Source: Flavobacteriales bacterium (lineage in GTDB: Bacteria > Bacteroidota > Bacteroidia > Flavobacteriales_F > PHOS-HE28). Taken from it: DNA of 64,000 nucleotides. The translations under genes were made by a program, and so were the position numbers. Below the pieces are notes generated by a model. The model saw only the letters and a list, made by a program, of their open reading frames with translations. It did no database searches and was not told the origin of the DNA. The stretch lies in assembly GCA_016704485.1 (NCBI GenBank), contig JADJAA010000001.1, positions 1,554,824-1,618,823 on the forward strand. The letters are read 5' to 3'. This document shows positions 32,344-44,091 of the stretch, piece by piece; position 1 is the first letter of the stretch; every line of letters begins with the position of its first letter.

Positions 32344-33354
32344 TCATTTCGCGTAGTTCTTCTTCATTTCCATCACCCGCAAAAGCAGCGCTTGGCGTAG
32401 TTCTTCCGGCGCAATAACCTGTAGCCCTTCTCCATAAGATAACAACAAGGCTTGTAGCTCGTAGTTCAGCTTCACTTCTAAACGAATAGTCGCGCCGCCG
32501 TCTTTTCTCTTCACTACTTTCTGCGAACCGTGTATAGGCTTTGACTCCAAATAAGGCCAAAGTCTATCCGTGACTTGGATCTTGACAACAACAGCTTCTT
32601 GATCCGCAGGTACACTTACACCAACAACATCCTCAAAATACTCCGTGAAATCCACCTCATCGTTCGGTATGTATTTCACCTTACTGGGTACAATATCCCG
32701 GATCCGGTCCAAGGCCATATTGACAATACGCCCCTCTTCCTCAAGACCAAAAACAAACCAACGGTTGTTATACTGTTTCAAGTAATACGGATGGAGCAAC
32801 ACAATGCTAGGCGCATTTTGCTTGAAGCCTTGGTAAGATATTTCCAAGGCTTGCTCATTGATGATCGAATGAAATAATGTGGTAATGTGCTCGGCACCTT
32901 TCAAATACGGGTTCTGCTCAAACTCGATGACCTGAGCAGCCCCTTGTTTCAGCCCGAAACCAGCTTCCAACCGAGCAACTAATTCATCTACCCATTCAAA
33001 CTGCGGCATGCCCTTAAATCGGCTCAGCGTTAAGAGCGCCTCCTTCAATTGTTCCGCTTCGCTCTCGTTCAGCGGTCGCTTGTTGATAGAGAATTCAAGG
33101 TCACTGTACCGGTAAAAAGTACGCTTTCCGTCTTTGTGTTTCTCCAGCGGGATAGCCCATCCTTGTTCGCTCTCCATGTACTTGATGTCCTCGAAAACTT
33201 GGCGGCGGCTGATGCTTGCACCTGCTCCGGTGAACTCCTCCAACGCCATGTTGCAAGCTTCCATCAGGTCTTCGATGAAATACTCGCGCCCACGGTTCGC
33301 AAAGCAACGGTCCATTGTCTGATAGCGAATAAGGGCATTCTTATTTACGGGCAT
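32344..33354 (-). CDS. WYL-domain transcriptional regulator (BrxR/CapW-like layout: wHTH + WYL + C-terminal domain)
   Basis: N-terminus MPVNKNALIRYQTMDRCFANRGREYFIEDLMEACN. WYL core VLLHPYYLKQYNNRWFVFG...NMALDRIRDIV. It is the first gene of the minus-strand operon. Confidence 0.8.
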   Translation of the reverse strand: MPVNKNALIRYQTMDRCFANRGREYFIEDLMEACNMALEEFTGAGASISRRQVFEDIKYMESEQGWAIPLEKHKDGKRTFYRYSDLEFSINKRPLNESEAEQLKEALLTLSRFKGMPQFEWVDELVARLEAGFGLKQGAAQVIEFEQNPYLKGAEHITTLFHSIINEQALEISYQGFKQNAPSIVLLHPYYLKQYNNRWFVFGLEEEGRIVNMALDRIRDIVPSKVKYIPNDEVDFTEYFEDVVGVSVPADQEAVVVKIQVTDRLWPYLESKPIHGSQKVVKRKDGGATIRLEVKLNYELQALLLSYGEGLQVIAPEELRQALLLRVMEMKKNYAK

Positions 33355-33489
33355 CTCGGGTGGCTGAAATTAGGGCTGAACGGTGTTACCAGCCTCGTCT
33401 TTTATGGTCCTTCAGAAATACAAAAAACGGACTAATGCTTCTGCGCTCACTTTTCAAAAATCAATTGCATAGAGCAAATTAATCTTCCG

Positions 33490-33904
33490 CTGCCAGCTGG
33501 GTGGTAACCTGCACCAAGCTTGATGGTACCACACACCAAGCTTAGTGGTACCCTGTGCCAAGCTTAGTGGTACCTTGCACTAAGCTTGATGGTACCCTGC
33601 ACTAAGCTTAGTGGTACCCTGCACTAAGCTTAGTGGTACTCTGCACTAAGCTTAATGGTACCCTGCACCCAGTTGGGTGGTACCCTCCACCCAGCAGGGT
33701 GGTACCCTGCACCCAGTTGGGTGGTACCCTGCACTAAGCTTAGTGGTACCCTGCACTAAGCTTAGTGGTACTCTGCACTAAGCTTAATGGTACCCTGCAC
33801 CCAGTTGGGTGGTACCCTGCACCCAGTTGGGTGGTACCCTGCACCCAGTTGGGTGGTACCCCGCACTAAACTTAATGGTACCCGACACCAAGCTCAATAG
33901 TGCA
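33490..33904. repeat. Tandem array 1: about 19 contiguous 22-bp units, each carrying a 14-bp palindrome plus GGTACC
   Basis: The units are CTGCACTAAGCTTAGTGGTACC (core CACTAAGCTTAGTG) or CTGCACCCAGTTGGGTGGTACC (core CACCCAGTTGGGTG). Units at 33597-33728 are repeated at 33729-33860 as a 132-bp (6-unit) higher-order repeat. Edge units are degenerate. Confidence 0.95.
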
Positions 33905-33993
33905 TTCCATTGATCTTGAGGGAGTTCACCTGAACCAGCATTGCGCTTGTGCCTCGGGAACTTGAGGAAGTAAAAGGTGAAATGGTCCGCTAT

Positions 33994-34202
33994 CTATACC
34001 ATACTACTATAGGGCACATTGAACCTTAGTCTGGACTTCCGCCTTCGGAACTGCATTCGCTGCCAGATGATCATTGGGGTGCAATTATCCCAAACCTATA
34101 CCATATTACTATAGGGGGCATAAGCCTCCATCTCCGGCTCGTGAACTTTGGAGGTAAAGATGGTGTGATTTGACCTACTACCTATACCATATTACTATAT
34201 GG
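33994..34202 (+). promoter_or_regulatory. Three dispersed copies of a 21-bp element CTATACCATA(T/C)TACTATA(G/T)GG
   Basis: Copies at 33994-34014, 34096-34116 and 34182-34202, with starts 102 and 86 bp apart, all in the same orientation. Two copies end in ACTATAGGG, identical to positions -6 to +3 of the T7 promoter consensus. Function is unknown. Confidence 0.5.
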
Positions 34203-34291
34203 TGCTTTGCACCGTGCGCCTCGTGGTGCACACTTGTGGTTCAGAACTGCTTCATGTAGGCCTGGTGCAAGAGGCTGTATTTGTTCCATTG

Positions 34292-34753
34292 GTACATGGC
34301 CTTGTCCCGTAAGTACATGTACTTGTGCCTTTGGTACATGTACTTGTCCCGTGAGTACATGTACTTGTCCCGTAAGTGCATGTACTTGTCCCGTGAGTAC
34401 ATGTACTTGTCCCGTGAGTACATGTACTTGTCCCGTAAGTACATGTACTTGTCCCGTAAGTACATGTACTTGTGCCGTTGGTACATGTACTTGTCCCGTA
34501 AGTACATGTACTTGTGCCGTTGGTACATGTACTTGTGCCGTTGGTACATGTACTTGTGCCGTGAGTACATGTACTTGTGCCGTGAGTACATGTACTTGTC
34601 CCGTAAGTACATGTACTTGTGCCGTTGGTACATGTACTTGTCCCGTAAGTACATGTACTTGTCCCGTAAGTACATGTACTTGTCCCGTAAGTACATGTAC
34701 TTGTCCCGTAAGTACATGTACTTGTGCCGTGAGTATGTGTACCTGTACCATGT
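34292..34753. repeat. Tandem array 2: about 22 contiguous 21-bp units built on the palindrome GTACATGTAC
   Basis: Units are GTACATGTACTTGTCCCGTAA, with variants ending ..GTGCCGTTG, ..GTCCCGTGA and ..GTGCCGTGA. Adjacent units form GTACATGTACTT-GTCCCGT-AAGTACATGTAC, a 12-bp stem with a 7-nt loop. The period is a multiple of 3, so all six frames appear open. Confidence 0.95.
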
Positions 34754-35042
34754 GTAACGATACTTCAAGTTACAGTACACTTACTTGATACAGAGGTGCT
34801 TATGCCATTGCGTGGGGTATGCCTGCTTGTAACACGGGGACTGATAACCCACTCAGCGTCAGGCGTAAAGAGTGATCCGAACGTTGCCCGTGCTGCATAA
34901 CCCATCCTCGAGCGGCCGCGTGCGGGCTACAGTAAATGAAAAGAACCCCGGCCAGTTGTGCTAGGATTCTTCCGTTCGGGGATGGTGTATGAGTGGCAGG
35001 GTCGTCTGCTATGCGGCAGACTGACCCTGAGCGGGTTTAAAA

Positions 35043-35327
35043 ATGCGCCGCTGCACTACGCAATGGGTAGCGGATGCGCAGTTCGCTTACCTGGTGGACC
35101 CCGCATCGCCCGAAGCGGAACTTCCGCACAAAGCAACCCTCTTGGTGCACTGCCCGGAACGCGGCGAGATCCGGCTGAATATATTGTCCAACGGTTCCAT
35201 CGCCGAACTACAGTTCACGGACTGCTATGAACCGATGTCCAGAACCACCAGCATAGCAGAAGAATCCGATCCGATGTCTCCTTTTACCGTGGTACATCGG
35301 CATTGGGATCACGGCAGTGAGGTGTAG
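35043..35327 (+). CDS. Possible 94-aa hypothetical protein
   Basis: It is the only ORF in the 2.1-kb gap with ordinary amino-acid composition (…DAQFAYLVDPASPEAELPHKATLLVHCPERGEIRLNILSNGSIAELQFTDCYE…). A strong plus-strand terminator follows 22 nt later. It has no homolog I recognise. Confidence 0.3.
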   Translation: MRRCTTQWVADAQFAYLVDPASPEAELPHKATLLVHCPERGEIRLNILSNGSIAELQFTDCYEPMSRTTSIAEESDPMSPFTVVHRHWDHGSEV

Positions 35328-35348
35328 GTGTGCCCCTCATTTGAATGG

Positions 35349-35384
35349 AACGACCCCGCTGTTTTTGCTGGGTCGTTTTTTTTG
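35349..35384 (+). terminator. Rho-independent terminator
   Basis: AACGACCC (35349-35356), 13-nt loop, GGGTCGTT (35370-35377), followed by a T run. Confidence 0.7.
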
Positions 35385-35457
35385 CTGGGGGGCGCGAGAG
35401 ACGAGCTTCCATTCTTGCAGACCATGGATCAATGGGCATTGGATGGAATGTAAATTG

Positions 35458-36426
35458 TCAAGCCTTTATGAACTCGTTCACAAAAGCTTGTACAAATTGC
35501 TTGGCTAAAGCAGAGTAAGGCTTGGTCGGCTCTGTCAGTTGCATCAGCAATTCCACCTCTTGCTCGATCATCGCCTCAATTGTTCCTGTGGTCTTTTTTA
35601 CAAGTTTGTTCAATGTACGTGTTGGTACTTTATCCTTGAATGATCTGATATCCTTACCGATCTCGTTCGATAGGTCGATCAATTTCAAGATCATCTCAAA
35701 ACGCATTTTTAATCGCAGAATGTATTCTCTGCGCATATCGACCAACCCCTTTCTATTCAAGCCGTAGATCTCAATGGAACGGATCGCTTTTTGCCAATGG
35801 ATCTCCCTTTTTATCACGTTCTCTGATGAGGGCAAAGCAATGGCCTTCATTACTCCTGAGTCATCGTATTCCAAGTATTTGCTAGGTTCGTCCGTACAAG
35901 GGTTCAACAACAAACATTGTTCGCCTGAAATATCGAACAGCGGCGCACTCGCACGCATTGTTTCATCAAACAATGGAAAAGAGTTTGCCTTTCCTTGTTT
36001 TAGCTTTTTCCATTGATAGGACCCATCTATGGGGTTCTTTCGATACACATATTGATAGCGCGCTCTATTGCAGTCTATGCATGAAGGGAGTAGATTATCC
36101 CATTCCATTGCGAGCTTAGCATATACACCTACTTTAGTTTCGGTCTTGTTCGTCAATTCTACGAGCACTTCGGATTTGGGTCTGAAATGCTCAATATCCA
36201 GCGGTTGTGTGCGCGTGTAAGGTGATTCGCAATATGCACATTTACCATGGAACATAAGCTCCAACAACTCAGGCACTTTTTCGTGCTTGTAAAGCTTGAA
36301 ATCGGGCTTTAGGTCCTTGTGGAAATCGCTTCGAAGCCATGCTTCCACCTCTTCCTTTTCTTTGTTGAAGGCATCCGAGGTTATGGTAAGTGCCTGCGGG
36401 GCATTTACGCGTTTTCGTTTGATCAT
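35458..36426 (-). CDS. PtuB-like HNH endonuclease (TIGR02646-type)
   Basis: HGKCAYCESPYTRTQPLDIEHFRPKSE...WDNLLPSCIDCNRARY, followed by LLLNPCTDEPSKYLEYDDSG. It starts 8 nt downstream of the ATPase gene. Confidence 0.75.
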   Translation of the reverse strand: MIKRKRVNAPQALTITSDAFNKEKEEVEAWLRSDFHKDLKPDFKLYKHEKVPELLELMFHGKCAYCESPYTRTQPLDIEHFRPKSEVLVELTNKTETKVGVYAKLAMEWDNLLPSCIDCNRARYQYVYRKNPIDGSYQWKKLKQGKANSFPLFDETMRASAPLFDISGEQCLLLNPCTDEPSKYLEYDDSGVMKAIALPSSENVIKREIHWQKAIRSIEIYGLNRKGLVDMRREYILRLKMRFEMILKLIDLSNEIGKDIRSFKDKVPTRTLNKLVKKTTGTIEAMIEQEVELLMQLTEPTKPYSALAKQFVQAFVNEFIKA

Positions 36427-36434
36427 TGAAGAGC

Positions 36435-38822
36435 TCAGTTGTTCAGGCGCCAGGAAGCATCCGTTAAAGCCTCTATTATCTTCTTAGTGGGTTTGGGAAA
36501 TCGTACGTTGGTCGGTGACTTCATCAAGTGCTCATCGATCAGCCTCAACAAGTACATATCACGCCGACTACTACCGAGAATGCTCTTTCTGTTGAGTCGT
36601 TCATGTAGATCCTTCAGTTGTGCCTTACCCGAATCATCTAACGCCGATGCCTTCGCTATGAGGTTGTAATAGCGGTCAAAGAATTCAGCTGTGCGCGGGT
36701 CCAGGGTTGTACTTAATCCGAATAATTCTGAGGTAAGGAGCTGGTCGGAACGTAAGCCAGCCGGCGAATCCATGTCGTCGTGTACTGTAGCCATGGAAGG
36801 GTCGTCCACATTTCTCTTGACCAATGCTACTTCACCAGCACCCAGCCCATGCAGGCATAGTGGCTCATGGGTGCTCGCGATGAATTGGATAAGCGGAAAT
36901 GTCTGTTCCAATCTTCTTAAGATGCTCATGCGCCAACTCGGGTGCAGATGTGCACCGATCTCATCAATTAGTACCACGCCTCTAATTTGATGCGTATCCG
37001 TTGGATTGCCTGCCATTATATCACAGGCTAGACCAACCATGGTCTTGTAACCCGCACTAAAATGCTTTAAGCGGGTGAATGACCCGTTCACGAAAAGCCC
37101 GAATTGTGTTGGCTTGTTGTTTTCAAATTGAAAGTCGAGACGTGTAGAATTATCTGTAAGATCCAGCAGGTCCTTCAAGGCCACACAAACATCGAAGAAC
37201 TGCTGTTGATTCTTTACCACTATGGTACGTAACCACTCTTCGGCATCTACCATGGGATAGAACGGGTCAAAGAGGTTCTGGATGTTCTTATTCACTCCCC
37301 TTTTCTCTAACAGATCAGAACTCTTGCCTTTTTGCGGCAGCAATCGAACAGGCCCGTATGCACGAAGAAATATATTCGGGACCTCACCTTGCTCCCATTT
37401 TAATCCGCTATTCGTGATGTTCACTACGATAGGATCTGTTCGCTGATGAAAGTAGACTTCAATTCTACCTGACGTAGCTCCACGCCTCAAGCTAGTGCTG
37501 AAATGCTCCTTCATCTTACTCAAGGCTTTCTTGCCGCTGAGTATCAATGCAAGTGCTTCGAGCAGCGAACTTTTTCCTGACCCGTTCTCACCCAGCAGCA
37601 TTTTCCAACCGCTGTGTCGAAAGGTTTCCTGTTGTGGAGATTCGGAGCCGTTTTCGTCGATCGTCTTCCGGCGTTCCTCTTGATTGCCTCCCGCTGTTTC
37701 CGTGTTCAAGTCTAAGTTCAGTTCACGTTCTGTGTCTACTAGGTCTTTCGGGCGTTCTTGGGGGATCAAGAATACAGCCTTCTCGAAGATCCTGTAATTC
37801 TCAACTATTAATTTGCTAATGGTCAGCGCTTGATGCGCGACTTTCTCCTTGGACGGCGCATTCTCTGTGGCGGTTTTCGGAGGAGTTCTTTGCGCCTCGG
37901 AACTCGTCTTCTTTGGAGACTCCTTATTAGCGCGTGTTGATCCCGGTTTCGTACGCGCTCCGGTCTCAGCTTCTAATAAGGACCCAGGCTTATTGAGCCC
38001 TTTGCTTATTGTTTCGACGTGCAGGCCGTCGCCTTGAATGAGGATTTTTAGTCCGAAGTCCTCCTTAAGAACATGGTTACTCAGATTCCGCATTGGACTT
38101 TGCGGGTCTATCAGTCCTTTCAAGAAGTGATCTTCTTCTACGGTTCGAGGTAGTTTCTCACCCTTTTTTTTAAGAACCAGAGACTTTGTCAAGTCGCGAA
38201 CTCGGTGAACCATATCACTCCTTCTATTGATGGCGGATTTCCGGTTCAGGTCCAGAGTTTCAATGGTCACCTCGGCTCGTCGCTTCTGCATGTGCCCTAA
38301 AGTGGAACGAGGCTTTATCATTCCATTAGATGAATAGTCGAAGTACTCCTCCGGATCGTCTTCATAAGGATTCAGCAAATACGGTTCTTCTTTCTCGAGC
38401 GCACTCCCCCGAGGCTGGTCATCAGCATGCTTGATAGGAACACGTTTTCCGGCGATGGGAAACTGTGCTCCCTTTGCAAAACTGCACTCATTGCATATGG
38501 GTAGCATGTTCTGCCAATCAAACAATAGCCACCAATAGTGGTCGCCAACCTGCTCATTTGGTTCCACTTTTACCGGTCGGTACAGGTCGATGTGTACCGT
38601 CTTTTCATTCAAGGGTGCTTCGCAATACGCACATGCATTATTGGAGGTTTCCAGAAGATCTCGGTTTACATCACGAGAATACTGTGGAGCCTTGTGTCTT
38701 ATCTGGCTTCGCTTCTCTAAAGGTTGCGCATAAAACTTCCGAAGTTCATTGAACGTCTTCTCTCCTTCCGTACTGTACTGTAGGTCTGGTGGAGATACTT
38801 TACTTCGGTTCAGTTTTCTCAT
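36435..38822 (-). CDS. Fusion of a PtuB-like (HNH-derived) N-terminal domain to a PtuA/AAA_15-type ABC-like ATPase
   Basis: N-terminus NNACAYCEAPLNEKTVHIDLYRPVKV...WQNMLPICNECSFAKG. Low-complexity linker (KPGSTRANKESPKKTSSEAQRTPPKTATENAPSKEK). Walker A LLGENGSGKSSLLEAL. Walker B VVLIDEIGAHLHPSW. FIASTHEP. Confidence 0.75.
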   Translation of the reverse strand: MRKLNRSKVSPPDLQYSTEGEKTFNELRKFYAQPLEKRSQIRHKAPQYSRDVNRDLLETSNNACAYCEAPLNEKTVHIDLYRPVKVEPNEQVGDHYWWLLFDWQNMLPICNECSFAKGAQFPIAGKRVPIKHADDQPRGSALEKEEPYLLNPYEDDPEEYFDYSSNGMIKPRSTLGHMQKRRAEVTIETLDLNRKSAINRRSDMVHRVRDLTKSLVLKKKGEKLPRTVEEDHFLKGLIDPQSPMRNLSNHVLKEDFGLKILIQGDGLHVETISKGLNKPGSLLEAETGARTKPGSTRANKESPKKTSSEAQRTPPKTATENAPSKEKVAHQALTISKLIVENYRIFEKAVFLIPQERPKDLVDTERELNLDLNTETAGGNQEERRKTIDENGSESPQQETFRHSGWKMLLGENGSGKSSLLEALALILSGKKALSKMKEHFSTSLRRGATSGRIEVYFHQRTDPIVVNITNSGLKWEQGEVPNIFLRAYGPVRLLPQKGKSSDLLEKRGVNKNIQNLFDPFYPMVDAEEWLRTIVVKNQQQFFDVCVALKDLLDLTDNSTRLDFQFENNKPTQFGLFVNGSFTRLKHFSAGYKTMVGLACDIMAGNPTDTHQIRGVVLIDEIGAHLHPSWRMSILRRLEQTFPLIQFIASTHEPLCLHGLGAGEVALVKRNVDDPSMATVHDDMDSPAGLRSDQLLTSELFGLSTTLDPRTAEFFDRYYNLIAKASALDDSGKAQLKDLHERLNRKSILGSSRRDMYLLRLIDEHLMKSPTNVRFPKPTKKIIEALTDASWRLNN

Positions 38823-43362: not shown

Positions 43363-44091
43363 AAGTCACGAGAGGATGATCTGCTCACAATACCCAGTTA
43401 CAGGTATTCTGATATTACAGCTGGATATGTTTATAGTAGAAACCAAGTTGAAGCCGACGTTAAGCAGTGCAAATGGTACGCATGCGCATTCGGGCTTTAA
43501 TACCTCCCGCCCATTCCCATCCAAGAAACTTCTATCGATCCATTGTGCATTCATGTGGTACTTCTTGTTGGTGTTACACAAGTACTTCTTCCACCACGTC
43601 GCAGGATCATGTGCGGGTTCTTCTGTCAGCAGGCCAGGAACCCATGATCGGTGTGATCAACTTCTTTGCAAAGGCGAAATAAGCGCATTGTTGAATGCGC
43701 CTACTCCCGAAAAACCCTAGGGTACTACTCCCGAAAAATCATAGGGGTGGAGACCTATACTAACAGTGCGGATTGTCGCGGAAAATGTGTATTGCGTTCT
43801 GCGCGTTGCGATGAATTCGTTGTGCTTTTGTGCAGGATACGATCAGGTACATAGAGGGGAATATCCAAGTACAGCAATGGTTATCGGTGGTCGGTCGGTT
43901 ACGGCTTGGCGTTGTGCAGGAGGTTGCATGGTGCATTACGCGCTTTCGTTGGGTTGCATTTTGTCGGGAGATCCGTAACATAATTTCTGGAATAGCACTG
44001 CGTGTTTTTCGGGAGTACCCCCCTATGAAAAACACGCAGTGCCACCTCGAACGGGGCCGGTACTTTGGCCGCCAGAATAGAACCACATTCC

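What the first reader, a model, noticed from the sequence alone, without database searches (positions are those of the whole stretch)
34292..34753. Array of about 22 contiguous 21-bp units (GTACATGTAC core) able to fold into a train of 12-bp-stem hairpins
The unit GTACATGTACTTGTCCCGTAA has three variant tails. Because GTACATGTAC is its own reverse complement, adjacent units give GTACATGTACTT-GTCCCGT-AAGTACATGTAC, a 12-bp stem with a 7-nt loop repeated along 460 bp. The exact 21-bp period (two helical turns) also phases the palindromes on one DNA face. The units are contiguous with no spacers, so this is not a CRISPR array. Tandem-repeat RNAs placed before a terminator recall type III toxin-antitoxin antitoxins (ToxI-like). 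However, this array is much longer and the units are shorter, so the resemblance is loose.
Basis: partly seen in the sequence, partly recalled or inferred. Interest (0 to 1): 0.6.

Follow-up and report, generated by a model that had tools for sequence, protein, structure and literature searches.

The report
Orphaned 21-bp palindromic repeat cassette
The 21-bp repeat array is real and belongs to a conserved non-coding cassette that in related Flavobacteriales sits between a response-regulator gene and a small fibronectin-type gene; here it is a stranded copy in a defence island, and similar two-helical-turn palindromic arrays turn out to be widespread in Bacteroidota with no known function.

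Summary
Window 34292-34753 is a contiguous 21-bp x ~22 array, with 19 perfect GTACATGTAC cores against 0.05 expected by chance.

The ToxI-like reading does not hold. There is no toxin gene, no terminator after the array and no Rfam match. The RNA fold is strong but degenerate.

The array is the body of a conserved cassette: a 24-nt "D4" box, a ~110-nt leader, then the 21-bp array. In related activated-sludge Flavobacteriales this cassette lies between an orphan NarL-type response-regulator gene and a ~205-aa fn3-domain gene, all co-oriented. In this window both genes are missing. The D4 box is triplicated, a second 22-bp array lies upstream, and the cassette ends at a recombination junction that truncates a neighbouring gene. 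The whole region sits inside a defence island.

A metagenome scan found about 18 sequence-unrelated groups of contigs. About 14 of them are convincing prokaryotic arrays with the same core at the same 21-bp period but different spacers.

My best guess, at moderate confidence, is a double-stranded DNA element that presents about 20 in-phase palindromic binding sites for a dimeric regulator. A transcribed hairpin RNA and a functionless minisatellite both remain live alternatives. The closest published analogue is the BrickBuilt minisatellite of Porphyromonas gingivalis.

The parts
34292..34753 (.). Array 2, the finding: 22 contiguous 21-bp units made of the GTACATGTAC core plus an 11-nt tail with four variants.
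   Evidence: The core varies about 5-fold less per site than the tail.
33501..33894 (.). Array 1: 22-bp x 17.9 units, GTGGTACCCTGCAC plus TAAGCTTA or CCAGTTGG, with a 132-bp higher-order period. It carries two alternative 14-bp palindromes, CACTAAGCTTAGTG and CACCCAGTTGGGTG.
   Evidence: This unit occurs only at this locus among all 140 loci held at that point and in no viral contig.
33966..34027 (+). D4 box copy 1 (core 33994-34014, CTATACCATACTACTATAGGG) with the upstream GGTG block. A partial leader follows.
34068..34129 (+). D4 box copy 2 (core 34096-34116, CTATACCATATTACTATAGGG) with the upstream GGGGTGC block.
34154..34215 (+). D4 box copy 3 (core 34182-34202, CTATACCATATTACTATATGG). This is the copy that heads the full leader.
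   Evidence: A sigma-70-like TTGACC-17-TACTAT match occurs here only.
34203..34291 (+). Leader between D4 copy 3 and array 2. Conserved blocks are GTGGTyCAGAAC, CATGTAG and TTTGTTCCAkTGGTAC.
   Evidence: 71-76% identical to the leader of loci L122, L124, L125, L132 and L138. Alignment. The distance from D4 to the array is 109-110 nt in the window, L138 and L122.
34754..35042 (+). Tail, unique to this genome and moderately structured. It ends in a strong hairpin at about 34997-35035.
   Evidence: RNA fold z = -2.66. No homology to the tails of related cassettes. No inverted terminal repeats.
35043..35327 (+). ORF94: the 5'-truncated remnant of a 138-160-aa protein family. Position 35043 is a recombination junction.
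   Evidence: Homologues P0122-P0126 carry about 45-65 extra N-terminal residues. DNA and protein homology to L010 and L013 starts exactly at 35043-35044.
32344..33354 (-). Left neighbour: a WYL/WCX transcription regulator that heads an operon with a radical-SAM protein (PDC-M51A) and an N6-methylase/HATPase fusion. Its promoter region abuts array 1.
   Evidence: Almost none of 80 homologous loci carry an array next to this gene, so the arrays are not a trait of this family.
35458..38822 (-). Right neighbour: Septu defence genes PtuB (35458-36426) and PtuA (36435-38822), convergent with the cassette.
   Evidence: PtuB E = 1e-68, PtuA E = 2e-157.

Best explanation
**What it is**
Array 2 is the repeat body of a conserved non-coding cassette of activated-sludge Flavobacteriales. 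The cassette runs: a GGGGTGC block, a 24-nt D4 box (TAyACCATAyTACTATAGGGyGCA), a ~110-nt leader, then a 21-bp tandem array. In intact relatives it fills the gap between an orphan NarL/LuxR-family response-regulator gene and a ~205-aa gene with a C-terminal fn3 domain ("gene X"). All three are co-oriented.

In this genome both genes are gone. The cassette is an orphaned, partly duplicated copy, with three D4 boxes and an extra 22-bp array. It is stranded at a recombination junction (35043) inside a defence island.

**How it works (inferred, not shown)**
The array acts as double-stranded DNA. About 20 copies of a 10-12-bp palindrome lie exactly two helical turns apart. This puts identical dimer-binding sites on one face of the helix, allowing cooperative coating by a dimeric helix-turn-helix protein. 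In intact modules the adjacent response regulator is the best candidate. The coating would gate transcription from the D4/leader region into the downstream gene. In this window the cis target is lost, so the array is probably a relic, or is bound only in trans.
For: **Shown**
- The D4 box and leader are homologous between the window and loci L122, L124, L125, L132 and L138. The D4-to-array distance is the same, 109-110 nt.
- In those loci the order is regulator stop codon, 36 nt, D4, leader, array, hairpins, gene X.
- The same regulator / array / gene X order occurs in L013 and L146 (with a D4-like box), in L016, and in L110, L134 and L137. Gene X identity falls as low as 34-41%. An array has therefore persisted at this position while its sequence turned over.
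- The regulator is a full-length NarL/UvrY/FixJ-family match.
- The regulator and gene X are absent from the window.

**Supporting a DNA-level role**
- Among long arrays found without ascertainment on period, 21-22 bp dominates: L013, L016, L048, L136 (two further arrays) and array 1.
- Periods of 22 bp rule out coding as a general explanation.
- Within arrays the palindromic core varies 2-4% per site against 5-24% for spacers. Core changes fall mostly in the central CATG, as expected for two half-sites.
- About 18 sequence-unrelated groups of metagenome contigs (GC 23-64%) carry GTACATGTAC at the 21-bp period with unrelated spacers. About 14 are convincing prokaryotic arrays.
- Array lengths cluster at 15-23 units.
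Against: - No binding protein is identified. The regulator link rests on gene neighbourhood only.
- Arrays in low-GC Bacteroidota (L109, L119, L112, L136) have no regulator gene within the sequence available.
- The L013 array is mostly non-palindromic.
- Array 1 carries two different palindromes in one array. Across arrays the -1/+1 flank covaries through all four base pairs (11 of 17, p = 6e-4). Both points fit selection for base pairing (RNA or cruciform) at least as well as protein recognition.
- The core and the 21-bp period of the metagenome hits were imposed by the search pattern.
- The D4 box upstream and the hairpins downstream look like a transcription unit.
- In the window the presumed target gene and regulator are missing, yet the array is intact.
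Confidence: 0.38

Rival explanations
1. Transcribed structured RNA. The D4 box is a promoter or start region, and the leader plus array are transcribed into a ~0.6-kb RNA. Its self-complementary cores pair within or between units to give many short helices. The RNA acts as a non-coding RNA or as a structured 5' leader of the downstream gene.
For: - D4 is strongly conserved and always lies upstream of and co-oriented with the array, at a fixed distance.
- Hairpin-rich tails separate the array from gene X in L134, L137 and L138.
- In L112 and L119 the array ends only 50-90 nt before a start codon, so it must be close to or inside the 5' UTR.
- The outer base pair of the palindrome covaries across arrays, and array 1 shows compensatory palindrome variants.
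- The fold is very stable.
- 42-bp super-periods in L016 and L134 would fit two-unit hairpins.
Against: - No Rfam family matches.
- D4 does not match the Bacteroidota -33/-7 promoter consensus (TTTG / TAnnTTTG; this consensus is from my own knowledge). Only one of the three copies gives a sigma-70-like match, and the number of such matches is below the shuffle expectation.
- No terminator follows the array in the window.
- The predicted fold is degenerate, with no defined structure.
- An intra-unit hairpin would have only 4-5 bp.
- The leader shows little covariation.
- 63-bp super-periods and the non-palindromic L013 units do not fit hairpin pairs.
- A strict 21-22-nt period has no obvious RNA rationale.
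Confidence: 0.25
2. Functionless minisatellite. A palindromic unit prone to hairpin-mediated replication slippage expanded in a gene-poor junction of a recombining defence island and persists neutrally.
For: - The array lies at a recombination junction with a truncated gene.
- Its presumed partners are absent.
- Copy number differs among assemblies of the same locus (9, 14, 16 and 27 against 21).
- L010 has the regulator and gene X but no array.
- Array unit sequences turn over completely between relatives.
- Non-coding satellites without known function exist in prokaryotes (PMC6749651).
Against: - An array of 15-23 units persists at the same position in modules whose proteins are only 34-41% identical.
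- D4, the leader and the D4-to-array distance are conserved.
- The core is under stronger constraint than the spacers.
- The preferred 21-22-bp period recurs in unrelated arrays.
- Three independent long-read MAGs agree exactly on the 21-core arrangement. The deviant copy numbers come from short-read assemblies and may be artefacts.
Confidence: 0.22
3. BrickBuilt-like mobile element. The leader, array and tail form a non-autonomous transposable element (MITE) that carries an internal minisatellite, moved by an IS transposase.
For: - BrickBuilt of Porphyromonas gingivalis (also Bacteroidota) has contiguous 23-nt repeats, up to 22.8 copies, a conserved leader and tail, predicted long stem-loops and no Rfam match (PMC4596501).
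- The window cassette is found in a different gene context from its relatives.
Against: - No terminal inverted repeats or target duplications flank the window cassette.
- The tail has no homologue.
- All other copies of the D4-leader cassette lie in the same regulator / gene X context, so the pattern is synteny rather than dispersal.
- Only one cassette occurs in the 64-kb window.
- The different context here is explained by deletion or recombination at 35043.
Confidence: 0.06
4. Type III toxin-antitoxin antitoxin (ToxI-like) repeat RNA, processed by and neutralising an adjacent endoribonuclease toxin.
For: Tandem direct repeats lie in a defence island, with a co-oriented ORF about 300 nt downstream.
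Against: - The downstream ORF is a truncated remnant with no nuclease, Pfam or PADLOC match.
- Units are 21 nt and number 22, against about 36 nt and 2-6 copies for ToxI (from my own knowledge).
- Rfam gives no match.
- No terminator follows the array.
- Homologous cassettes precede an fn3-domain gene.
Confidence: 0.02
5. Plasmid-type iterons or a partition centromere, that is, tandem binding sites for a Rep or ParR/ParB-like protein.
For: The array consists of contiguous direct repeats of about two helical turns with a dyad core. This resembles R6K 22-bp iterons, F sopC, and pSK41 or R1 parC (from my own knowledge).
Against: - No rep or par gene lies within about 10 kb on either side.
- The locus lies on chromosome-sized contigs of 0.8-2.2 Mb.
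- Homologous cassettes sit between a response regulator and an fn3 gene.
- Gene X has no match in plasmid or phage collections.
Confidence: 0.03

Closest known systems
BrickBuilt minisatellite/MITE of Porphyromonas gingivalis (Klein et al. 2015, PMC4596501)
   Same: - Bacteroidota host and intergenic location.
- Contiguous tandem units of about two helical turns (23 nt against 21-22).
- Up to about 22 copies.
- A conserved non-repetitive leader before the array.
- Dyad symmetry that gives predicted long stem-loops.
- No Rfam match and unknown function.
   Different: - BrickBuilt has IS5-type terminal inverted repeats, a conserved tail and 19 dispersed copies per genome.
- Here no inverted termini were found.
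- The tail is not conserved.
- All homologous cassettes occupy one syntenic position, between the regulator and gene X.
- There is no sequence similarity to BrickBuilt.
Tandem operator, iteron or centromere arrays (R6K 22-bp iterons, F sopC, pSK41 and R1 parC)
   Same: Contiguous direct repeats phased at one or two helical turns, each with a dyad element. In those systems dimers coat the array cooperatively. This is the mechanism I propose here.
   Different: Those arrays belong to plasmid replication or partition modules with adjacent rep or par genes. Here the setting is chromosomal, no such genes are present, and the arrays are longer. The comparison rests on my own knowledge of those systems.
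ToxI and other type III antitoxin repeat RNAs
   Same: Tandem direct repeats with no spacers in a phage-defence neighbourhood.
   Different: The unit is 21 nt rather than 34-36 nt. There are 22 copies rather than 2-6. There is no toxin gene, no terminator and no Rfam match.
REP/BIME and other palindromic intergenic repeats
   Same: Short imperfect palindromes in intergenic DNA, capable of forming hairpins and of binding proteins.
   Different: REP elements are dispersed or clustered in alternating orientation with variable spacing. They are not strict head-to-tail arrays at a fixed 21-bp period.

Membership tests
Type III toxin-antitoxin (ToxIN, CptIN, TenpIN) | An endoribonuclease toxin gene lies immediately downstream of the repeats on the same strand. 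| tested here: not met
   The only co-oriented ORF (35043-35327) is a truncated remnant with no Pfam or PADLOC hit.
Type III toxin-antitoxin (ToxIN, CptIN, TenpIN) | Repeat units of about 34-40 nt, few copies, followed by a terminator, and matching the known RNA families. | tested here: not met
   Units are 21 nt and number 22. No terminator follows the array. Rfam gives no match at the gathering threshold or at E <= 10.
CRISPR array | Repeats are separated by unique spacers of similar length, with a cas operon nearby. | tested here: not met
   Units are contiguous. No cas genes occur among the neighbours. The WYL protein matches only accessory-regulator profiles.
Plasmid iterons or partition centromere | An adjacent rep or par gene whose product binds the repeats, and a location on a plasmid or phage replicon. 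| tested here: not met
   No Rep or Par domains occur in the flanking genes. The contigs are 0.8-2.2 Mb.
BrickBuilt-type MITE with internal minisatellite | Contiguous tandem units of about 23 nt with a conserved non-repetitive leader. | tested here: met
   Units are 21 nt. The leader plus D4 box is conserved in L122, L124, L125, L132, L138 and L013.
BrickBuilt-type MITE with internal minisatellite | Terminal inverted repeats matching an IS family, and a conserved tail. | tested here: not met
   No inverted repeats link the left and right ends. Tail alignment scores are at shuffle level.
BrickBuilt-type MITE with internal minisatellite | Many dispersed copies per genome in unrelated contexts. 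| not testable with these tools
   Only the 64-kb window and ~21-kb loci of the source genome are available. All cassette homologues seen are syntenic.
Response-regulator / cassette / fn3-gene module (defined here) | D4 box, then leader, then 21-bp array, in that order and orientation, with a D4-to-array distance of about 110 nt. | tested here: met
Response-regulator / cassette / fn3-gene module (defined here) | A NarL-type response-regulator gene upstream and the fn3 gene X downstream. | tested here: not met
   tblastn finds neither near the arrays. The window copy is therefore an orphaned cassette, not an intact module.
Protein-coding heptad repeat | One conserved open frame with a start signal, substitutions biased to synonymous sites, and a period that is a multiple of three in all family members. 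| tested here: not met
   Four of six frames are open, and gene callers pick different frames in different assemblies. Variable sites fall at first and second codon positions. The sister array has a 22-bp period. The translated array found no homologues.

The most novel reading that the evidence does not exclude
The D4 boxes are promoters of the T7 class of single-subunit RNA polymerases. D4 is TATACCATAyTACTATAGGG; T7 is TAATACGACTCACTATAGGG, with 9 of 10 positions identical from -7 to +3. On this reading the cassette is silent until a phage polymerase arrives. It then titrates that polymerase on three tandem promoters and produces a long, highly self-complementary RNA (or drives gene X in intact modules). 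That would be a phage-polymerase-triggered sensor or decoy placed at a defence-island hotspot.

The evidence does not exclude this. The cassette abuts restriction or defence genes in the window, L010, L013, L122 and L125. D4 does not resemble a Bacteroidota housekeeping promoter.

The evidence does not support it either. Viral-contig matches to D4 are at the number expected by chance (my own estimate, about 5-10 per pattern). No phage with repeated D4 copies was found.
Probability: 0.05. Interest if true: 0.9.

Novelty: new variant of a known kind. Interest (0 to 1): 0.55.

Why it matters
Long non-coding tandem arrays are rare and unexplained in bacteria. This one is not an isolated oddity.
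- It belongs to a cassette conserved next to a response regulator.
- The same palindrome at the same two-turn period recurs in many unrelated Bacteroidota contigs.
- Other 21-22-bp arrays with different cores occur nearby.

If the arrays are phased binding platforms, they would be a new kind of chromosomal cis-regulatory architecture, with about 20 identical operators on one helical face. They would also give a handle on an orphan regulator family.

If the arrays are neutral, they still mark a recombination hotspot where defence islands are exchanged, and they are a practical cause of assembly breaks. Either way the module gives a concrete, testable system: regulator, D4 box, array and fn3 gene.

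Tried and rejected
1. **Rfam.** I scanned the whole window at gathering thresholds and 33300-35500 at E <= 10. Only chance miRNA-like hairpin hits appeared.
2. **Array tied to the WYL regulator.** 80 homologous loci from GTDB genomes almost never have an array upstream of the gene. Rejected.
3. **ORF94 as a toxin partner.** It is a truncated remnant of a longer protein from another context. Rejected.
4. **Searching the protein database with the array translated in four frames,** to find other arrays miscalled as genes. Nothing scored, probably because of HMMER composition filters, and one capped search was lost.
5. **Viral-contig scans.**
   - Array-2 cores: 3 isolated hits and no arrays.
   - Array-1 unit: 0 hits.
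   - D4 core: 9 and then 5 hits, all single copies, about the number I estimate for chance. Two lie in a T7-like phage replication module, which I keep only as a lead.
6. **Terminal inverted repeats or target duplications** around the cassette: none.
7. **Homology of the window tail** to the tails or gene X promoters of relatives: scores at shuffle level. A similarity I saw by eye (CATAACC, GAACGTT) did not survive this test.
8. **Wobble-asymmetry test for strand-specific RNA selection** in core variants: too few events (2 compatible, 3 incompatible).
9. **Gene X function.** Only the fn3 domain is recognised by Pfam, NCBIfam, PHROGs and PDB sequences. There is no match in the plasmid or phage collections.
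10. **Consensus structure of the leader.** Covariation is weak (-0.75 kcal/mol covariation term) from only 4 sequences.
11. **Literature searches** for the core sequence and for 21-bp Bacteroidetes repeats found nothing specific beyond BrickBuilt and a general survey of prokaryotic satellites.

Full report
**1. The observation**

Window 34292-34753 is a head-to-tail array with a 21-bp period. Tandem Repeats Finder gives 21.7 copies, 91% matches and no indels. The 10-bp palindrome GTACATGTAC occurs 19 times in the 64-kb window, only here and at exact 21-bp steps. Shuffles expect 0.05.

The unit tails fall into four variants, not three. They arise from two polymorphic spots, C/G at unit position 15 and AA/GA/TG at positions 20-21.

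Folded as RNA the array is very stable (-220.5 kcal/mol, z = -16.3). The minimum-energy structure is a set of long nested helices with ensemble frequency near zero, and the centroid is different. No particular structure is defined.

No terminator-like site follows the array. Rfam finds nothing.

**2. What else lies in the gap**

The array sits in a 2.1-kb stretch without credible genes (33355-35457). That stretch also holds two other features.
- A second array of 22 bp x 17.9 at 33501-33894.
- Three direct copies of a 21-nt box, here called D4 (CTATACCATAyTACTATAGGG), at 33994, 34096 and 34182, all on the + strand.

Array 1 carries two alternative 14-bp palindromes in the same array, CACTAAGCTTAGTG and CACCCAGTTGGGTG. 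These differ by changes on both arms.

*Flanking genes:*
- On the left is a WYL/WCX regulator heading an operon with a radical-SAM protein (PADLOC candidate PDC-M51A) and an N6-methylase/HATPase fusion.
- Further left are a type I restriction system, GmrSD and large helicases.
- On the right is Septu (PtuA/PtuB) with an amidohydrolase.

The region is a defence island.

**3. Source and population**

The WYL protein occurs with 100% identity in Flavobacteriales MAGs and metagenomes from wastewater and activated sludge, including contigs of 0.8-2.2 Mb. The locus is therefore chromosomal.

All assemblies share the order WYL, array 1, three D4 boxes, array 2, ORF94, Septu. Three long-read MAGs and most other assemblies have the identical 21-core arrangement. 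A few short-read assemblies show 9, 14, 16 or 27 cores with the same ends. These may be real unequal-exchange variants or assembly artefacts.

**4. A recombination junction**

The ORF after the array (35043-35327, 94 aa) is the C-terminal two-thirds of a 138-160-aa protein family. In two close relatives (L010, L013) the window's right-hand flank from about 43.5 to 49.7 kb is 95-99.7% identical. Homology on the array side starts exactly at 35043-35044, and everything to the left is different. The cassette therefore ends at a junction that truncated this gene.

**5. The cassette and its normal context**

I scanned JGI metagenomes for three GTACATGTAC cores at 21-bp spacing. This returned 35 contigs, nearly all with true 21-bp arrays.

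In one group (L122, L124, L125, L132, L138) the array is preceded by a near-identical D4 box (CTATACCATACTACTATAGGGCGCA). It is also preceded by a leader 71-76% identical to window 34182-34268. The D4-to-array distance is the same, 109-110 nt.

The order there is:
1. The stop codon of a 220-aa NarL/UvrY/FixJ-family response regulator.
2. 36 nt of spacer.
3. D4, the leader and the array.
4. GC-rich hairpins.
5. A ~205-aa protein with an unknown N-terminal half and a C-terminal fn3 domain ("gene X").

All of these are on one strand.

The same regulator / array / gene X order appears in several other loci.
- L110, L134 and L137.
- L013 and L146. These are relatives of the window strain. They have a D4-like box (GGGGTACCATACTACTAAGGGTGCA) 45 nt after the regulator stop, a MITE-like insertion in the leader, and gene X followed by the full-length ORF94 homologue.
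- L016, a Cryomorpha-like MAG with a TATA-rich box.

In L013 and L016 the arrays again have a 21-bp period and 17 copies, but their units are unrelated. L016 has the core TAAGGCCTTA. L013 has a 63-bp super-unit that is largely non-palindromic. L010 has the regulator and gene X with 1.1 kb between them and no array.

Neither the regulator nor gene X is present in the window near the arrays. The window copy is thus an orphaned and partly duplicated cassette. D4 copy 1 carries part of the leader, and copy 3 heads the full leader.

These modules also abut restriction or defence genes in L010, L013, L122 and L125. The site behaves as an island-exchange hotspot.

**6. A wider class**

After grouping by flanks, the 35 metagenome hits fall into about 18 unrelated groups with GC from 23 to 64%. 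Four of these look like eukaryotic or low-complexity satellites. The rest are prokaryote-like, with Bacteroidota-type genes nearby (TonB-dependent receptor, DUF4249, DUF2807, T9SS sorting domains). Spacers are unrelated between groups.

The core and the period were imposed by the search pattern, so their constancy across hits is not evidence. Four observations are free of that bias.
- Within arrays the core varies 2-4% per site against 5-24% for the spacers. Core changes cluster in the central CATG.
- The bases immediately flanking the core are complementary in 11 of 17 arrays (p = 6e-4) and use all four pair types. The next pair out is at chance.
- Long arrays found without any period constraint are mostly 21-22 bp: L013, L016, L048, two further arrays in L136, and array 1.
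- Array lengths cluster at 15-23 units in the higher-GC lineages.

**7. How it probably works**

*Shown:* cassette homology, synteny, the orphan status of this copy, and constraint on the core.

*Inferred:* the mechanism.

I favour a role as double-stranded DNA. Identical dyad sites exactly two helical turns apart lie on one face of the helix. This geometry is used by iteron and centromere arrays that dimers coat cooperatively (this comparison rests on my own knowledge). The helical period is the one property shared by arrays whose sequences differ. A NarL/LuxR-type regulator, which typically binds dyad sites as a dimer, is the constant neighbour in intact modules.

*Against this reading:*
- Covariation of the outer pair.
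- The two palindromes within array 1.
- The D4-upstream and hairpin-downstream layout, which fits a transcribed RNA.
- Low-GC arrays that lack a nearby regulator.
- L013 units that are barely palindromic.

A neutral minisatellite is disfavoured by the persistence of an array at one syntenic position across deep divergence and by the conserved leader. It cannot be excluded for this orphaned copy. My estimates are 0.38 for a DNA binding array, 0.25 for an RNA, 0.22 for a neutral repeat, and small values for the rest.

**8. Comparison with known systems**

The closest published element is BrickBuilt of Porphyromonas gingivalis. It has contiguous 23-nt units, up to 22.8 copies, a leader and a tail, predicted long stem-loops and no Rfam match (PMC4596501). 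The present cassette shares the leader-plus-minisatellite design and the phylum. It lacks the terminal inverted repeats and the conserved tail, and as far as can be seen it is not dispersed.

Type III antitoxin, CRISPR, iteron or centromere, and coding-repeat memberships each fail a defining feature (see the membership table).

D4 resembles T7-class promoters at positions -7 to +3. This is a lead only. Viral matches are at the number I estimate for chance.

**9. Verdict**

The feature is real and the description is largely correct, but the ToxI reading is wrong. It is a new variant of a poorly understood kind, the Bacteroidota non-coding minisatellite with a leader. New here are a syntenic gene context and evidence for a widespread class of arrays phased at two helical turns. 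The function is unproven.

Noticed in passing
window 33501-33894: A second tandem array of 22 bp x 17.9 with a 132-bp higher-order period. Two alternative 14-bp palindromes (CACTAAGCTTAGTG and CACCCAGTTGGGTG) coexist in it. Each unit also contains GGTACC. The unit was found nowhere else among the loci held or in viral contigs.
   Followed up: partly
window 33994-34014, 34096-34116, 34182-34202: A triplicated 21-nt D4 box, conserved in related cassettes directly after a response-regulator gene. Positions -7 to +3 resemble T7-class promoters (ACTATAGGG). Its role is unknown: promoter, operator or something else.
   Followed up: partly
window 35043-35327: ORF94 is a 5'-truncated pseudogene-like remnant. 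Homology to relatives starts exactly at 35043, which marks a recombination junction. L010 carries two paralogous full-length copies.
   Followed up: yes
window ~6850-43400: A large defence island. It holds a RecQ-like helicase with a PRTase-like tail plus a DprA/SLOG protein, a 1610-aa DEAD+UvrD helicase fusion, GmrSD, a type I R-M system (hsdR, hsdM, hsdS), WYL with radical SAM (PDC-M51A) and an N6-methylase/HATPase fusion, Septu, an amidohydrolase, and peptidase C1 with SH3/CHAP proteins. The 795-aa PtuA carries an N-terminal PtuB-like (HNH) region.
   Followed up: partly
window 43701-43746; L146 6723-6768: A 24-bp x 1.9 direct repeat (TACTCCCGAAAAACCATAGGGTAC) lies just inside the point where synteny with relatives resumes (43497 or 43660). 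It is conserved in L146. It may be a boundary or attachment-type site of the variable region.
   Followed up: no
L013 5910-6162: A ~250-bp insertion with perfect 17-bp terminal inverted repeats (GCAGGGCTTTCGCGTCT ... AGACGCGAAAGCCCTGC) inside the leader of the related cassette. It looks like a MITE.
   Followed up: no
L136 1718-1910, 4494-4657, 10430-10664: One 11-kb Bacteroidota contig carries three different 21-bp arrays, with cores GGTACATGTACC, GTCATGAC and TTGCATTGGCAA. They lie around a TonB-dependent receptor / DUF4249 operon, next to a tRNA gene. The same operon type adjoins arrays in L111 and L135.
   Followed up: partly
L119 354-1049; L112 539-1243: In low-GC Bacteroidota the GTACATGTAC arrays end 50-90 nt before the start of ~232-aa proteins with no family match. 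Their C-terminal motifs faintly recall the fn3 end of gene X.
   Followed up: partly
window 34907-34919: The tail contains CTCGAGCGGCCGC, which is adjacent XhoI and NotI palindromes. With GGTACC, AAGCTT and CAGCTG in array 1 and ACATGT and GTAC in array 2, the whole gap is unusually rich in restriction-type palindromes. The sequence is present in all independent assemblies, so it is not vector contamination.
   Followed up: no
L142 and L145 (IMG/VR contigs): A T7-like phage replication module (primase-helicase, family A polymerase) is preceded by TACCATATTACTAAAGGGAG. This matches 17 of 18 bases of D4 copy 2. The number of such hits is about what I estimate for chance.
   Followed up: partly
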